Assembly: GCF_048403405.1 (NCBI RefSeq)
Contig: NZ_CP183129.1
Length of the DNA: 64,000 nt
Origin: Escherichia coli
GTDB lineage: Bacteria; Pseudomonadota; Gammaproteobacteria; Enterobacterales; Enterobacteriaceae
Direction: 5' to 3' (one strand)
Numbering within the stretch: position 1 is the stretch's first letter; every line of letters starts with the position of its first letter. A program made the position numbers and the translations under genes. Below the pieces are notes generated by a model. It saw only the letters and a list, made by a program, of their open reading frames with translations, made no database searches and was not told where the DNA came from. Positions 44,088-49,323 of the stretch are shown one piece after another.

Positions 44088-45146
44088 TTATGCTTTCCAC
44101 TTCAGAACACCCGAATTTCTCGCGTGCATTAAAAAACGAATCAGCAACAACAACTGACTACCGTGTTTTTCTTCAAAATCTTTTACCCCGGCGTGTAGTT
44201 CGTTATGGCATTTACGACACAGCGGAATAACAAACAAATCGTCAGCCTTTGTTCCCATCCCTCCCAGTCCATGACCAATGATGTGATGCGGATCATCTGC
44301 CTGATTGCCACACGTCATGCATTTCTGCGTTTTTACCCAGCGCGTGTATACAGGCATCTCTTCCCGTTGTGGTTTCTGGCGCTGGAGATACTGAGCCGGA
44401 GATTCCGGATCAACGGCAATGCTGACCACCGTCTTTTCCTGTGGTGGGTTCTGTTGCTGGTGGGCGTGAGGCAGCGGCGCAAGATTTTTTGTGCGCTGTT
44501 TCAGTATGCTGGTGGCGGTCTGCTCTCCCGGTACGATGTCGCTTTCACGGTACATTGAGCGGATTTTTTCCGCACGCAACCCCAGCGAACGACGTAATAC
44601 CGCTTCCGGTAGCGCGTCCGCCACCTGATTGCGGACCGCCCACCAGGATAATTCAGCCAGCGATAATTCCCGTTCCTGCGAGCCATTCATTGCATGGCGT
44701 ATGACGTCAATCATCCATGCAGACAGGTTTTGGTGAGCAAGTTGCCCGAGTGATTCGGAGGTCTGGTCGCGCAGCTGGTTGTCGCAGTGCCAGCACAACA
44801 CCATTGCGCCGGTACCATAACGGTGAATGACGGTTTCACTGTGGTGATAATCGCCGTGTGGCCACTGGCAGGATTTAACATGGCGCAGTAACCAGTCAGA
44901 CAATGCGCCAGCGCCACCAGCAGCACGAATCACTCGTTCGTCGCTGAAAAATGGCAGTAATGATTTATCCTCCGCCAGCGGCTGGCGAACGGCAGGAACG
45001 ACCCCGGACGACAGATTACGCATGCTTTTCGGTTCCGGCTCCACCAGTACCCGGGTATTGTGGAATACCGGCATGGATTCACGGCCCGGTTTTAGCACCA
45101 CCAGCCCAAGTTCCGGTACCAGAACAGGTCGAAGTAATACCCGCAC
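44088..45146 (-). CDS. DUF968-like prophage protein with C-terminal HNH-like zinc motif (YdfU-like)
   Basis: 352-aa ORF; C-terminal CMTCG ... HHIIGHGLGGMGTKADD ... CRKCHNELH; same neighbourhood (Q, rem-like, hok) as Qin ydfU. Confidence 0.7.
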   Translation of the reverse strand: MRVLLRPVLVPELGLVVLKPGRESMPVFHNTRVLVEPEPKSMRNLSSGVVPAVRQPLAEDKSLLPFFSDERVIRAAGGAGALSDWLLRHVKSCQWPHGDYHHSETVIHRYGTGAMVLCWHCDNQLRDQTSESLGQLAHQNLSAWMIDVIRHAMNGSQERELSLAELSWWAVRNQVADALPEAVLRRSLGLRAEKIRSMYRESDIVPGEQTATSILKQRTKNLAPLPHAHQQQNPPQEKTVVSIAVDPESPAQYLQRQKPQREEMPVYTRWVKTQKCMTCGNQADDPHHIIGHGLGGMGTKADDLFVIPLCRKCHNELHAGVKDFEEKHGSQLLLLIRFLMHARNSGVLKWKA

Positions 45147-46230: not shown

Positions 46231-46374
46231 TTTTCTCTATCTGCCTTTTGGTGTTCATGCCTGAGACAGATAGCCTCAAGCACCCGCAGTTATTCTACTT
46301 AACTAAGATTTCCCCGCAAACCGTTTTTGTCCGGCACAGTAAATATCCAACTAAACCAATGGCGTTCGCTGTAT

Positions 46375-46554
46375 TTACCGCCAGTATTCAATGCACATGA
46401 CCGCCATGAACACCCCTAAAAAAAGGGCATTTATATGTCCAAACATTAATATCAAAACATCAATTTTTTCCATATACCTTGCTGTGAAGATGATGGGCAT
46501 ACATGATGCGAACAACCAGAACGCAACAAACAAAAACTGCAATGCGTTTTTCAT
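46375..46554 (-). CDS. hypothetical small membrane protein (2 TM)
   Basis: 59-aa ORF with two hydrophobic segments. Confidence 0.4.
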   Translation of the reverse strand: MKNALQFLFVAFWLFASCMPIIFTARYMEKIDVLILMFGHINALFLGVFMAVMCIEYWR

Positions 46555-46674
46555 TATTCCCCCTACAATCAATGTGCAATAACATTTAAACACACCTCAA
46601 TTTGGCCGGACATATAAATATCTAAACCAGAAAAAATCACTTACATAGCGTTACAAACTCTTTAGTCTAAATAT

Positions 46675-47661
46675 TCATCGTAAAACATCCTCCACGCTTA
46701 TCAGTCCATTTCGTTTCAGGTAATCCATCGCCTTCTCCGGTAATTTGCAGTCCGGCTGAGCTTTTTTCAGTTGACTGACCAGTCGTTTAACCCACATTGT
46801 TAATTCGCTAACCTGGTTACCTAGCGCTGGCGACGCTACTGTCTGTTCCAGAACGTCATCAGGTACTACCGGCTCTACTGCCAACTGACTGGCATATTTG
46901 TTAATGGTAACGATAAGCTCTTGCTCGGCCTCATCCAGACAATCACCGATACCTCGCCTGTCACCGTCAAAATCATCGAAATCGGCGCGAATCCTGGCAA
47001 CCTCCCGGATTGCGGACAACACCTCACCAGGAATTACCGGAGAGTTGCCCGATAGTGCATTCTGCTCCAGTGATGCCTTTACAAACCACGCGGCCTGAAC
47101 TATTACGCCATGAATCCAGCGCAAATCAGCATCGCGATCTTTCTTTTTCATCTTTTCGCCACTTAAAGCCTGGCTTATGTGGCTACGTACAAGGTCTTCA
47201 TGTAACACCTTCGCATCCTCAATGGTGAAACCACCAGGCAGGCGAGCCGGGGTTACATGAGGGTTGCCTTCCCCCTGACTCTGAAGCATGGCGGCGCGGT
47301 AGGCATTCCAGCCTCTCACCTCTGCAATAGCGGCAACATCATCGACCGCGTACATTTTAAGAGGGTTAGGCATTGGTTTTTCTTCAGATACTACTGGCAC
47401 TGGAGGGGCGGCATAAACAGGAATAACGTCCGCTTGCTCTTTATTGCTTTCATCCGTTAAAGCCCAGAATAATTTCCCGGCCGGATGTTTGAAAATATAA
47501 GCAACTGGTTCTGCGCTATCAGCTTCGCGCCGCTTCTGTAGCTCTGCTGCCATTGCGCTCACGACTTCAACTGGTGCCCTTGCAGCAAACTCTATGTTGG
47601 TGATAAGCTCATTAAGATATTGCTCGCTGGGATACTGTTTCTTATTGGTAATAGTGGTCAT
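46675..47661 (-). CDS. hypothetical protein (328 aa)
   Basis: Long ORF in nin-type region; N-terminal module shared with ORF 48025-48432 (motif AAPPVPVVSE). Confidence 0.55.
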   Translation of the reverse strand: MTTITNKKQYPSEQYLNELITNIEFAARAPVEVVSAMAAELQKRREADSAEPVAYIFKHPAGKLFWALTDESNKEQADVIPVYAAPPVPVVSEEKPMPNPLKMYAVDDVAAIAEVRGWNAYRAAMLQSQGEGNPHVTPARLPGGFTIEDAKVLHEDLVRSHISQALSGEKMKKKDRDADLRWIHGVIVQAAWFVKASLEQNALSGNSPVIPGEVLSAIREVARIRADFDDFDGDRRGIGDCLDEAEQELIVTINKYASQLAVEPVVPDDVLEQTVASPALGNQVSELTMWVKRLVSQLKKAQPDCKLPEKAMDYLKRNGLISVEDVLR

Positions 47662-48023
47662 GCTGTAGCCCCTTCTTGATATTTTTCAAACCAGAACACA
47701 ACCGGGTCAGATTTCATTTCAACCAATCCCATACGAACCAGCGCTTTGCCTTTCCCGGACGCAAGGAATTCACGACGACCATCACTGATAATTCGCCGAT
47801 AGTCTTCCAGGCTACTGCAATGCTTGTGCAGATTGCATGGGTGGCATGCCGGAACCATGTTGGATATATCGTCACGTTCCTGGTGAAGCATATTTCCATT
47901 AAAACGAATGACCGGTTTTACATGGTCTGCATGCCACTTTTCGCCAAGTTCACAGCCGCAATAAGCACAGCGACCGCCAAACTTCATGCGCAATTCTGCA
48001 CGTTGTTTTTTCGTCAGTGCCAT
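47658..48023 (-). CDS. HNH endonuclease
   Basis: 121-aa ORF with CAYCG ... HADH ... N ... CHPCN ... H. Confidence 0.75.
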   Translation of the reverse strand: MALTKKQRAELRMKFGGRCAYCGCELGEKWHADHVKPVIRFNGNMLHQERDDISNMVPACHPCNLHKHCSSLEDYRRIISDGRREFLASGKGKALVRMGLVEMKSDPVVFWFEKYQEGATA

Positions 48024-48024
48024 A

Positions 48025-48432
48025 TCAGTCTCCTTTGATGCCAGTGTTTACAACCTGGCAGGCCTCTTTGAGCACCCAGTCAACAGCGTCTTTCCATGCT
48101 CCGGTTTCGACTGGCGGATTTTCACGCTTAACCTTTTCATAGAAGCGCACGGCTTTAACCAGTCCTTCAGACACAACCGGCACAGGTGGAGCTGCGAATA
48201 GTGGTTTAGGTGATATCTCCGCACGTTTTGCGTATGCTTCAACTGTGTCAGGATTAAACAGGATTATGTTTTCGCCGCATTTCCACGCTATCGGTTCCGC
48301 TTCTAGCGATGCCAGTGCAATTTTGAATAACTCACCCTCTACCCGTGCCATCCCTGAATTCGTGTGGCATTTCGCAATCGCTATTTTTAATTTGGCTTCT
48401 TCGATTAATTGCTCTTTTGTTAATTCAGTCAT
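48025..48432 (-). CDS. hypothetical protein (135 aa)
   Basis: ORF sharing N-terminal module with 46675-47661. Confidence 0.5.
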   Translation of the reverse strand: MTELTKEQLIEEAKLKIAIAKCHTNSGMARVEGELFKIALASLEAEPIAWKCGENIILFNPDTVEAYAKRAEISPKPLFAAPPVPVVSEGLVKAVRFYEKVKRENPPVETGAWKDAVDWVLKEACQVVNTGIKGD

Positions 48433-48527
48433 TTTTCATTACCGCCCTTTCGGGCGGCCTCCTGATGTTCTGAGGGTGCAGAAATCCCTCCGGTTAAGGA
48501 TAAAATTTTTAACAGTGCTAAATTTAA

Positions 48528-48884
48528 TTATTCAGTTCTGGATTTTGTCGCCCTGCATATCCGCGCTTTCGCGTTACGCTCAATCTGAATTAACTTTTCT
48601 ATATTTTTCCGCCTTTCCTGTTCCTCCTGGCGCAATAGCCTTACATCATCTGCCAGTCTGGTTTCTCTTTTCGCCACAGAGAGCATCCAGTCAAACGGCT
48701 CCACAACTGCACCGCAGATTTTACAGCGGACCTGACGCTCTTTTTCGTCAACCCGAACAGAGGCGTGATGACAATATGGTCTTTCCGATGACTCATAAAG
48801 AAAATTAACCTGATTACGAGGGTCATCCTCTTTTACCGGAAATAAAACGATATTGCTTAACTCATCCTCTGGTTTTATTTCCAT
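48528..48884 (-). CDS. hypothetical zinc-ribbon protein (118 aa)
   Basis: CHH ... CKICG pattern. Confidence 0.45.
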   Translation of the reverse strand: MEIKPEDELSNIVLFPVKEDDPRNQVNFLYESSERPYCHHASVRVDEKERQVRCKICGAVVEPFDWMLSVAKRETRLADDVRLLRQEEQERRKNIEKLIQIERNAKARICRATKSRTE

Positions 48885-49323
48885 GCTCCTCTCCTTTGAT
48901 GCGAATGCCAGCGACGCGTAATGCGTGTTCTAGGTCAATCAGGTAAAGCCAACTGCCATTTTCTTTAGGTATCATGACATGTCGCTCATCTGCATTTATC
49001 GGGTGTCCATATCGAAGGTCGTAGCGAGTCGGTAATTGAACTTCCCGCGCTTCCAGTTCAGCAATACGCTTACTCCCATCAGAGATAACGCCTTCGTAAT
49101 ACTCACGCTGCTCGTTGAGTTGTGATTTTGCTTCTTCCAGTCCATCCAGCAAATCAGCGATAATATCCGCTTCCCGATGACGGATGTGACGCTTAAACGC
49201 AGCAAGAGCCGCATCACAATCCCGTTCAGCATTTGGGCTGTCCGGGATAGCCTGATACCACGCCAGCGTCGACTGATAGTTTTGTGCTGCCTCACGAAGC
49301 GCCTCATAGTTAACCTCTCTCAT
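48862..49323 (-). CDS. hypothetical protein (153 aa), Ea22/ead-like coiled-coil
   Basis: ORF with coiled-coil-like heptads; nin-region position. Confidence 0.45.
   Translation of the reverse strand: MREVNYEALREAAQNYQSTLAWYQAIPDSPNAERDCDAALAAFKRHIRHREADIIADLLDGLEEAKSQLNEQREYYEGVISDGSKRIAELEAREVQLPTRYDLRYGHPINADERHVMIPKENGSWLYLIDLEHALRVAGIRIKGEEHGNKTRG

What the first reader, a model, noticed from the sequence alone, without database searches (positions are those of the whole stretch)
46675..48432. Paralogous N-terminal module in two nin-region proteins flanking an HNH nuclease
The 328-aa and 135-aa products share an N-terminal module ending in the identical decapeptide AAPPVPVVSE, with an EP(I/V)A(W/Y) motif about 30 residues upstream. 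Their DNA is diverged, so this is protein-level conservation rather than a recent repeat. They bracket a 121-aa HNH endonuclease. This looks like a modular gene family with a shared interaction domain and different C-terminal payloads; the function is unknown.
Basis: seen in the sequence. Interest (0 to 1): 0.45.

Follow-up and report, generated by a model that had tools for sequence, protein, structure and literature searches.

The report
Shuffled prophage genes sharing junction peptides
Two neighbouring E. coli prophage genes share short conserved "junction" peptides because both belong to a very large family of phage accessory genes assembled from interchangeable pieces; the nuclease gene between them is a separate, unrelated insert, so this is ordinary phage mosaicism rather than a new system.

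Summary
The 135-aa and 328-aa minus-strand ORFs both carry AAPPVPVVSE, with EP(I/V)A(W/Y) about 30 residues upstream. Seven of the ten decapeptide codons differ, all synonymously. An intact 121-aa HNH gene lies between the two ORFs.

The shared element is not a conserved domain. It is two junction peptides, J1 (ALASLEAEP-V/I-A-W/Y) and J2 ([17 protein letters not shown]). They flank a 26-49-aa slot that is filled by at least 18 unrelated sequence types, and the two window interiors are not significantly similar.

Both genes belong to a highly mosaic family of lambdoid-prophage accessory genes. The family has about 2,900 clusters at 50% identity and is variously labelled hypothetical, Eaa, DUF551 or Ea22-like. 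Leaders, cassettes and tails reassort freely, and DNA mosaic blocks start and stop at the junctions.

Syntenic prophages have one 187-aa gene at this position. In the window, 43 bp of that gene are replaced by a 1,237-bp block: a short tail with a stop codon, the HNH gene, and 280 codons of another family member.

The HNH cassette occurs between many unrelated neighbours, and only 4 of 82 loci have the module on both sides. The protein function remains unknown. Interest is low to moderate.

The parts
48025..48432 (-). 135-aa gene (phrog_660 type): leader, J1, cassette, J2, helical tail ending ...QVVNTGIKGD*
   Evidence: ORF. phrog_660 E=9.5e-51. dN/dS 0.125 against the 187-aa gene over codons 1-125. 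AF2 model pLDDT 72.
48283..48318 (-). J1 junction of the 135-aa gene (ALASLEAEPIAW, aa 39-50): end of leader helix 2 plus first beta-strand
   Evidence: The only ~31-nt stretch of this gene conserved at DNA level (82-94%) with many otherwise unrelated family members. H27-43 and E47-52 in the model.
48202..48282 (-). Cassette interior of the 135-aa gene (KCGENIILFNPDTVEAYAKRAEISPKP)
   Evidence: One of at least 18 cassette types. Found with 13 leader and 27 tail types. Predicted strand-helix-strand.
48166..48201 (-). J2 junction of the 135-aa gene (LFAAPPVPVVSE, aa 78-89)
   Evidence: Last beta-strand, then a segment with pLDDT below 50 at residues 82-86.
47658..48023 (-). HNH endonuclease gene, 121 aa: CxxC...CxxC zinc site and His-Asn-His motif intact
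   Evidence: PF01844 at 31.7 bits, above the 21.4 cut-off. phrog_2118 E=1e-56. 458 IMG/VR contigs encode a relative, and the 80 loci kept are 95-100% identical.
47646..48035 (-). HNH cassette as a DNA mosaic block. It includes the SD-containing last codons of the upstream gene (AAAGGAGAcTGAtATG) and the first codons of the downstream gene (ATGACCACTaTTAC).
   Evidence: 391 bp, 96.7% identical, in Stx phage ArgO145 between unrelated neighbours. Boundary sequences are conserved across about 80 loci.
46675..47661 (-). 328-aa gene: a chain of at least 6 mosaic modules. Leader (phrog_6847), J1-like, cassette, J2, tail ending in GWNAYRAAML (J3), two helical modules separated by NALSGNSPVIPGE (J4), then a C-terminal domain shared with phrog_660.
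   Evidence: The AF2 model is of low confidence (46.6) but shows the same N-terminal topology.
47497..47514 (-). J1-like junction of the 328-aa gene (AEPVAY, aa 50-55)
   Evidence: Several DNA mosaic blocks start exactly at gene nt 148.
47419..47496 (-). Cassette interior of the 328-aa gene (IFKHPAGKLFWALTDESNKEQADVIP)
   Evidence: Second most common cassette type, found with 16 leaders and 7 tails. In E. albertii proteins P0072 and P0078 it occurs inside the 135-aa-type framework.
47383..47418 (-). J2 junction of the 328-aa gene (VYAAPPVPVVSE, aa 82-93)
   Evidence: DNA blocks end or begin at gene nt 236-255.
46821..48057 (-). 1,237-bp block that replaces 43 bp of the single 187-aa gene found in syntenic prophages
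   Evidence: Flanks are 95% identical (48058-48434) and 96% identical (46675-46820) to loci L005-L008, with sharp breakpoints.
46675..46820 (-). C-terminal domain module (...NQVSELTMWVKRLVSQLKKAQPDCKLPEKAMDYLKRNGLISVEDVLR) shared with the 187-aa gene and with the 114-aa gene downstream of HNH in Stx phages

Best explanation
The two genes are mosaic paralogs from a very large family of lambdoid-prophage accessory genes built like beads on a string. The order is: a helical-hairpin leader; junction J1 (ALASLEAEP-V/I-A-W/Y); a small beta-rich cassette of 26-49 aa; junction J2 ([17 protein letters not shown]); one or more tail domains separated by further junctions (GWNxCRAAML, GNSPV(T/I)P...); and then a stop, a DUF551 domain or another end.

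What the two window proteins share is only J1 and J2. J1 supplies the end of the leader helix and the first strand of the cassette. J2 supplies its last strand plus a proline-rich hinge predicted to be disordered. Because these connectors are the same everywhere, any leader, cassette and tail can be joined in frame and still fold.

Module exchange most likely occurs by phage Rad52-type (Red/RecT) relaxed homologous recombination. It would act at the junctions and at equally conserved gene-boundary sequences (...AAAGGAGAnTGAnATG and ATGACnACTwTTACC). This mechanistic step is inferred.

The window arrangement arose when 43 bp of a single 187-aa family gene were exchanged for a 1,237-bp block. 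That block carries a short tail with a stop codon, an independent HNH cassette and the first 280 codons of another family member. The direction of the exchange is not determined.

The HNH gene is a separate mosaic unit with no specific tie to the module. The biochemical role of the proteins is not shown. By position and kinship with Ea22/Eaa genes they are probably non-essential early-expressed modulators, with the variable cassettes and tails as specificity parts. This is inference with low confidence.
For: Family and mosaicism:
- phrog_660 covers the 135-aa protein (profile positions 3-143) and the last 48 aa of the 328-aa protein (positions 146-193). The 328-aa protein hits 10 PHROGs piecewise.
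- There are 1,645 and at least 7,972 homologs with many architectures, and 2,932 clusters at 50% identity.
- 216 parsed proteins give 24 leaders x 18 cassettes x 38 tails in 116 combinations, with J2 consensus LYAAPP(A/V)PVVP(E/D).
- P0072 and P0078 combine the 135-type leader and tail with the 328-type cassette.

Breakpoints at junctions:
- DNA blocks of the 328-aa gene found in other loci at 86-99% identity start or stop at gene nt 148, 236-255, 349-381, 597-632 and about 823-832.
- J1 is conserved over about 31 nt of DNA.

Replacement event:
- Syntenic loci L005-L008 carry one 187-aa gene at this position.
- Flanks are 95-96% identical with sharp breakpoints, and 43 bp are replaced by 1,237 bp.

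HNH independence:
- The 391-bp cassette is 96.7% identical in ArgO145 between other genes.
- Across the 82 HNH loci there are 44 distinct upstream proteins, of which 59 loci carry the DUF4014 type and the rest several unrelated kinds; 21 loci end in KGE/KGD, and the 59 DUF4014-type ones end in ...NPYKE(S/N/G/R). 78 of 82 downstream genes start MTT.... The module is on both sides in only 4 of 82.

Structure:
- The 135-aa model has two helices, then strand-strand-helix-strand, then pLDDT below 50 over PPVPV, then two helices.
- The 328-aa model shows the same N-terminal topology.

Peptide-level selection:
- Synonymous sites in J2 are essentially saturated, with no amino-acid change in the decapeptide.

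Literature:
- Ea22 genes of Stx phages are described as mosaic with portable C-terminal domains (PMC10834534).
- Rad52-like phage recombinases recombine short diverged homologies, with a minimal efficient pairing segment of 23-27 bp for Red-beta (PMC3945230).
Against: - No experiment or known structure assigns a function to any module.
- J2 is poorly conserved at the DNA level (9 DNA variants in the loci read). It is therefore unlikely to be a frequent homologous crossover site itself, and its strict peptide conservation is more than a passive hinge would usually need.
- The direction of the 43-bp / 1,237-bp exchange cannot be determined from two states.
- The 328-aa structure model is of low confidence (46.6).
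- dN/dS of the 328-aa N-terminal part against strain 1506 is about 1, on only 17 substitutions, so constraint on that part is not demonstrated.
- The protein sets are biased towards relatives of the two queries, so the type counts are lower bounds and the combination frequencies are not population estimates.
Confidence: 0.75

Rival explanations
1. One reading: the shared module is a protein-interaction domain through which both flanking proteins work with the HNH nuclease as a three-gene unit, for example a nuclease with two adaptors.
For: The three genes are tightly packed and probably translationally coupled: a 1-nt gap and an ATGA overlap. The arrangement recurs in 127 E. coli genomes and in 4 IMG/VR loci. 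The peptide is under protein-level selection.
Against: The same 1-nt gap and ATGA overlap occur with every neighbour type. Only 4 of 82 HNH loci have the module on both sides, and 59 of 82 have an unrelated DUF4014-type gene upstream. The family has about 2,900 clusters and thousands of members without an adjacent HNH. PADLOC finds no system, only weak generic HNH similarity.
Confidence: 0.05
2. The HNH gene is a free-standing homing endonuclease. It cuts HNH-less alleles at or near the conserved boundaries, and repair copies the HNH gene together with flanking segments. This would create the split gene and drive the local mosaicism.
For: There is a presence/absence polymorphism at the same locus (window against L005-L008). 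The HNH cassette is 95-100% conserved between many different neighbours, with exact cassette ends. The catalytic and zinc residues are intact.
Against: The HNH-less allele differs by a 1,237-bp versus 43-bp replacement that includes 280 codons of another gene, not by a precise HNH insertion. The cassette ends are the generic gene-boundary sequences used by all genes of this region. Non-nuclease modules show the same block behaviour. HNH DNA identity between contexts (96.7%) is no higher than that of the neighbouring shared modules (95-96%).
Confidence: 0.12
3. J2 (LYAAPPVPVVPE) is a functional short linear motif rather than only a hinge. It could be a docking site for a host protein, or an EF-P-dependent APP/PPV translational pause that separates co-translational folding of the modules.
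For: The peptide is strictly conserved while synonymous sites are saturated. The consensus is held across 67 cassette-by-tail combinations. The segment is predicted to be disordered, as such motifs usually are. That X-Pro-Pro motifs stall ribosomes without EF-P is established knowledge, recalled and not tested here.
Against: No partner is known. Positions 7, 8 and 12 vary (A/V, P/L/S, E/D). Some members replace the proline run, for example VYAAAPASVVPD and LFTATPVPLTPE. This reading is compatible with, and not exclusive of, the best explanation.
Confidence: 0.12
4. The shared decapeptide is a chance low-complexity match or a recent DNA repeat or gene conversion.
For: The sequence is Pro/Ala/Val-rich. 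Both window copies carry the minority Ser (TCT) at position 11, whereas 328-type relatives elsewhere have Pro (CCT).
Against: The motif is family-wide, found in hundreds of proteins. It occurs in only these two ORFs of the window. 7 of 10 codons differ, and blastn finds only 31 nt at 77% identity, which excludes a recent repeat.
Confidence: 0.01

Closest known systems
Ea22 / Ead_Ea22 genes of lambda and Stx phages (exo-xis region; PMC10834534, PMC7093339)
   Same: Early-region lambdoid accessory genes with a helical N-terminal part and mosaic, portable C-terminal domains, some of them DUF551. They share the conserved gene end ...AGIRIKGE*. A true Ead/Ea22-like gene lies two genes upstream in the window (48862-49323). 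Hybrid proteins exist that join an Ea22-type N-terminus to the 135-aa-type module (P0039, U_L065).
   Different: Neither window protein matches Pfam Ead_Ea22. They lack the Ea22 coiled-coil region. They lie in the nin-region equivalent here, not between exo and xis. The prolysogenic effect shown for Ea22 has not been tested for them.
DUF551 (PF04448) domain-containing prophage proteins / 'Eaa protein' of E. coli prophages
   Same: Most homologs of the 328-aa protein, and many of the 135-aa protein, carry the same leaders, J1, cassettes, J2 and GWNxCRAAML junction, followed by a DUF551 domain.
   Different: The two window proteins have no DUF551 domain. They end in a short tail (135 aa) or in the KLPEKAMDYLKRNGLISVEDVLR domain (328 aa).
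PHROG families phrog_660, phrog_6847, phrog_14306, phrog_60 and phrog_5117 (all 'unknown function')
   Same: Direct profile matches: 135 aa to phrog_660 at E=9.5e-51; 328 aa to phrog_6847 at E=2.3e-55, phrog_14306 at 4.6e-44 and phrog_660 at 2.3e-29.
   Different: Each PHROG captures only part of the 328-aa protein. These families are themselves overlapping slices of one mosaic pool.
Lambdoid phage genome mosaicism by relaxed homologous recombination (modular theory; PMC2327257, PMC3945230)
   Same: Blocks at over 90% identity are flanked by short, weakly conserved sequences. Conserved gene-boundary sequences are present. A RecE-like exonuclease is encoded in the same prophage.
   Different: Here many breakpoints lie inside genes, at in-frame junction peptides, giving sub-genic modules of about 80-230 nt rather than whole-gene modules.
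Small phage HNH endonucleases (PF01844; phrog_2118; NinG/Rap-like and endonuclease VII-like relatives)
   Same: Beta-beta-alpha-Me HNH motif with a CxxC...CxxC zinc site.
   Different: It is not next to terminase, unlike the cos-packaging HNH proteins. It scores below threshold for NinG (18.9 against 25.4 bits) and far below cut-off for IscB, retron and PtuB HNH models. Substrate unknown.

Membership tests
Ead/Ea22-like family (Pfam PF13935) | Match to the Ead_Ea22 profile (N-terminal segment plus coiled coil) | tested here: not met
   No Pfam family at E<=1 for either protein and no NCBIfam hit. The neighbouring 153-aa gene, not these two, carries that name.
DUF551 (Pfam PF04448) | C-terminal DUF551 domain (...GWISCSERMP...THWMPLPEPP) | tested here: not met
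   No Pfam hit and the motif is absent from both sequences. Many homologs that share the N-terminal modules do have it.
PHROG phrog_660 / phrog_6847 (phage proteins of unknown function) | Significant profile match | tested here: met
   135 aa: phrog_660 E=9.5e-51 over residues 1-134. 328 aa: phrog_6847 E=2.3e-55 over residues 1-97, and phrog_660 E=2.3e-29 over residues 281-328.
Mosaic J1-cassette-J2 family (defined here) | J1-type peptide, 26-49-aa cassette, J2 peptide L/V-Y/F-AAPPxPVVxE, in that order | tested here: met
   Both window proteins have this layout. The 328-aa leader ends in ...READSAEPVAY rather than the canonical ALASLEAEPVAY.
Mosaic J1-cassette-J2 family (defined here) | Independent reassortment of leader, cassette and tail among members | tested here: met
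   116 combinations among 216 proteins. The two window cassettes occur with 13 and 16 leaders and with 27 and 7 tails. DNA block ends fall at the junctions.
HNH endonuclease (Pfam PF01844) | Profile match above the gathering score, with His-Asn-His and zinc-binding Cys pairs | tested here: met
   31.7 bits against a 21.4 cut-off. C19/C22, C60/C63, HADH and N-x8-H are visible in the sequence.
Free-standing homing endonuclease | Precise presence/absence of the endonuclease gene at one locus | tested here: not met
   The HNH-less allele differs by a 1,237-bp against 43-bp replacement that includes 280 codons of another gene.
Free-standing homing endonuclease | Cleavage of the endonuclease-free allele and biased inheritance | not testable with these tools
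   Needs enzyme assays and co-infection crosses.
NinG/Rap (Pfam PF05766) | Profile match above the gathering score | tested here: not met
   18.9 bits against a 25.4 cut-off.
Known anti-phage defence systems (PADLOC) | Match of the flanking proteins to a system component | tested here: not met
   No hits for the 135-aa protein, the 328-aa protein or the two upstream proteins. HNH shows only weak generic PtuB / PDC-M01B similarity.

The most novel reading that the evidence does not exclude
The J1/J2-delimited slot is a natural in-frame cassette-exchange site. A pool of at least 18 unrelated mini-domains, including a zinc ribbon, is swapped by phage recombinases into a constant scaffold. This would diversify the specificity part of an early-expressed phage protein engaged in an arms race with host or rival-phage factors. 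In this reading the strictly conserved J2 peptide is itself functional, as a docking motif or a programmed translational pause, rather than a passive hinge.
Probability: 0.15. Interest if true: 0.6.

Novelty: new member of a known kind. Interest (0 to 1): 0.3.

Why it matters
The result explains a puzzling paralog-nuclease-paralog arrangement as ordinary lambdoid mosaicism, so a three-gene functional unit should not be pursued.

It also provides a usable grammar (leader, J1, cassette, J2, tail, J3 and so on) for a very abundant but uncharacterised group of E. coli prophage proteins. Annotation pipelines currently label these inconsistently as hypothetical, Eaa, DUF551 or Ea22-like, and sometimes truncate them, as here.

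If the cassette slot turns out to be a specificity determinant, the family would be a natural example of domain shuffling at fixed in-frame junctions.

Tried and rejected
- Pfam and NCBIfam scans of both flanking proteins gave no hits.
- PDB sequence searches gave nothing at E<=10.
- Foldseek of the 135-aa model against PDB found nothing significant. Against BFVD it found only uncharacterised phage proteins.
- The AF2 model of the 328-aa protein has too low confidence (46.6) for a fold search.
- PADLOC recognises no defence system.
- I tested whether the two cassette interiors are homologous by sequence. They are not distinguishable from shuffles.
- I tested whether the HNH gene is habitually flanked by module genes. 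It is not.
- I considered a precise HNH insertion (homing) and rejected it as the simple explanation, because the indel is 1,237 bp against 43 bp and composite.
- I considered a recent repeat or gene conversion and rejected it on codon divergence.
- A literature search for the motif strings found no paper. DUF551 and Ea22 papers give mosaicism and a prolysogenic role for Ea22 only.
Full report
**Observation**

There is a 1-nt gap between the 135-aa stop and the HNH start, and an ATGA overlap between the HNH stop and the 328-aa start.

AAPPVPVVSE is present in both flanking proteins, at aa 80-89 and aa 84-93. EPIAW and EPVAY lie 30-35 residues upstream. A six-frame scan finds these motifs nowhere else in the window. 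BLASTP gives 21/49 identities at E=4e-5.

At the DNA level, 7 of the 10 decapeptide codons differ, all synonymously. Over the 12-codon junction, 9.0 of 10.8 synonymous sites differ against 2.0 of 25.2 non-synonymous sites. blastn between the two genes finds only 31 nt at 77% identity. The claim of protein-level conservation rather than a recent repeat is therefore correct.

One caveat applies. Between the two conserved peptides the sequences are no more alike than shuffled controls (831/5000 and 1205/5000 shuffles reach the observed score).

**Context**

The window is 100% identical to a lambdoid prophage of E. coli strain 7/2 integrated next to potC. The gene order is: replication genes, DUF1627, DUF977, DUF4406, Ead/Ea22-like, a hypothetical gene, the 135-aa gene, HNH, the 328-aa gene, hokD, rem, DUF968, RusA and Q. 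'Nin region' is therefore a fair label.

PGAP calls only the last 204 codons of the 328-aa ORF, starting at Met125. The full ORF is supported by three things: its coupled start, phrog_6847 matching residues 1-97 (E=2.3e-55), and 328-aa products predicted in other assemblies.

**What the shared element is**

Neither flanking protein matches Pfam, NCBIfam or any PDB sequence. Both match PHROGs of unknown function. phrog_660 covers the whole 135-aa protein (profile positions 3-143) and the last 48 residues of the 328-aa protein (positions 146-193).

Homolog searches return 1,645 and at least 7,972 proteins. A profile search of 1.84 billion representatives returns 2,932 clusters at 50% identity. 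Those that carry a source name come mainly from Escherichia, with some from Salmonella and Citrobacter. Labels vary: hypothetical, Eaa, DUF551 or Ea22-like.

Reading these sequences shows a fixed grammar:
- a helical leader, of which there are many types;
- J1, ALASLEAEP-(V/I)-A-(W/Y);
- a 26-49-aa cassette;
- J2, (L/V)(Y/F)AAPP(V/A)PVV(P/S)(E/D);
- a tail;
- further junctions, GWNxCRAAML and GNSPV(T/I)P;
- then a stop, a DUF551 domain or another C-terminal domain.

In 216 parsed proteins I count 24 leader, 18 cassette and 38 tail types in 116 combinations. The window's two cassette types occur with 13 and 16 different leaders and with 27 and 7 different tails. One alternative cassette is a CxxC...CxxC zinc ribbon (P0088). 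E. albertii proteins P0072 and P0078 place the 328-type cassette inside the 135-type leader and tail.

The identical decapeptide is therefore the family-wide J2. Ser at position 11 is a minority variant, seen in 3 of 67 combinations.

**Structure**

The AlphaFold model of the 135-aa protein (pLDDT 72) has these elements in order:
- two leader helices (6-22 and 27-43);
- a strand-strand-helix-strand unit (47-52, 55-58, 61-70, 76-79), whose first strand is the PIAW of J1 and whose last strand is the PLF of J2;
- a segment with pLDDT below 50 over PPVPV;
- two tail helices.

The 328-aa model is poor (46.6) but repeats the same N-terminal topology. Foldseek finds no solved structure and only uncharacterised phage proteins in BFVD.

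J1 and J2 thus look like the fixed ends of a plug-in mini-domain followed by a proline-rich hinge.

**DNA mosaicism**

Pieces of the 328-aa gene recur in other loci at 86-99% identity. They begin or end at gene nt 148 (J1), 236-255 (J2), 349-381 (J3), 597-632 (J4) and about 823-832. About 31 nt of J1 are conserved at DNA level across otherwise unrelated members. J2 is conserved only as a peptide.

Gene boundaries are conserved too. Of the 82 HNH loci, 21 have an upstream gene ending in ...KGE*/KGD*, with the Shine-Dalgarno AAAGGAGA in its last codons. The 59 DUF4014-type upstream genes end ...NPYKE(S/N/G/R)* (TATAAGGAAAGCTGA). 78 of 82 downstream genes begin ATGACnACTwTTACC (MTTF/IT).

Published work shows that Rad52-like phage recombinases recombine short diverged homologies, with a minimal pairing segment of 23-27 bp for Red-beta (PMC3945230). 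[quoted passage not shown] The prophage encodes a RecE-like exonuclease. That these recombinases drive exchange at the junctions is an inference.

**Why the two genes flank HNH**

Syntenic prophages (L005-L008) have a single 187-aa gene at this position. Its first 125 codons are 95% identical to window 48434-48058, and its last 146 nt are 96% identical to window 46820-46675. Its 43 intervening bp are replaced in the window by 1,237 bp (48057-46821): the tail QVVNTGIKGD* with its stop, the HNH gene, and 280 codons of another family member. The breakpoints are sharp. The direction of the exchange cannot be told from two states.

The HNH cassette alone (391 bp, window 48035-47646) is 96.7% identical in Stx phage ArgO145, where it lies between a DUF4014-type gene and a 114-aa gene.

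Across 82 HNH loci, a J2-bearing gene is upstream in 6, downstream in 32 and on both sides in only 4, all of them window-type. In 59 the upstream gene is the DUF4014 type. The bracketing is therefore incidental.

HNH itself is an intact zinc-binding HNH protein (PF01844 above cut-off). It scores below threshold for NinG and far below the curated cut-offs for the IscB, retron and PtuB HNH models; PADLOC shows only weak PtuB-type similarity.

**Rivals**

- A functional three-gene unit is contradicted by the neighbourhood survey.
- HNH homing remains possible. It is not needed, and it is not supported by a precise insertion.
- A functional role for J2, as a docking motif or an EF-P-dependent pause, is compatible with the saturated synonymous divergence. 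It is untested.
- Chance or a recent repeat is excluded.

**Verdict**

This is a further member of a known but uncharacterised mosaic class of lambdoid accessory genes. No paper in the searchable library prints the junction motifs, so the junction grammar may be a useful descriptive addition. Nothing here is categorically new, and the protein function remains unknown.

Noticed in passing
window 47290-47661 (minus strand): RefSeq/PGAP annotates only the C-terminal 204 aa of the 328-aa ORF (WP_369759143.1, starting at Met125 inside the AAMLQ junction). About 370 nt after the HNH gene are left unannotated, although this part matches phrog_6847 at E=2e-55 and has an ATGA-coupled start.
   Followed up: partly
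window 46333-46674; ORF 46375-46593 (minus strand): An AT-rich segment (35-40% GC) lies between the 328-aa gene and the hok locus. In syntenic loci L005-L008 only about 75 bp occupy this position. The segment holds a 72-aa strongly hydrophobic ORF with no PHROG hit that PGAP does not annotate. It may be a small membrane-protein moron or non-coding filler.
   Followed up: partly
window 48020-48040 and 47640-47665; loci L002-L088 around the HNH gene: Conserved gene-boundary sequences surround the HNH cassette. Several unrelated upstream genes (21 of 82 loci) end ...(A)GI(R/G)(I/V)KGE*/KGD*, with the Shine-Dalgarno AAAGGAGA in their last codons. Nearly all downstream genes start ATGACnACTwTTACC (MTTF/IT...). 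Lambda Ea22, as I recall its sequence, ends the same way.
   Followed up: yes
window 48862-48890 (minus strand): The 153-aa Ead/Ea22-like gene reads through the usual ...AGIRIKGE stop position by 8 codons (EHGNKTRG*). It overlaps the start of the next gene (118 aa, phrog_1621, with a CxxC pair) by 23 nt. This looks like a variant of the standard boundary.
   Followed up: no
window 47386-47388 and 48169-48171: Both window copies of J2 carry the minority Ser codon TCT at position 11, whereas 328-type relatives in other contexts (L003, L057) have Pro CCT. This could be coincidence or a very short conversion tract between the neighbouring paralogs.
   Followed up: partly
loci L028, L032 etc. (221-aa gene downstream of HNH): Some family members carry two cassettes in tandem, each ending in LYAAP (...MHELYAAPRMRQPDGWKAVAVAWKVTF...ITPLYAAPAVPV). 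The cassette plus J2 unit can therefore be repeated within one protein.
   Followed up: no
window 44088-45146 (minus strand): The DUF968 protein just upstream of RusA carries its own C-terminal HNH-like motif (CMTCGN...HHIIGH...CRKCHNELH). This prophage therefore encodes at least two HNH-type proteins plus RusA in its nin-region equivalent.
   Followed up: no
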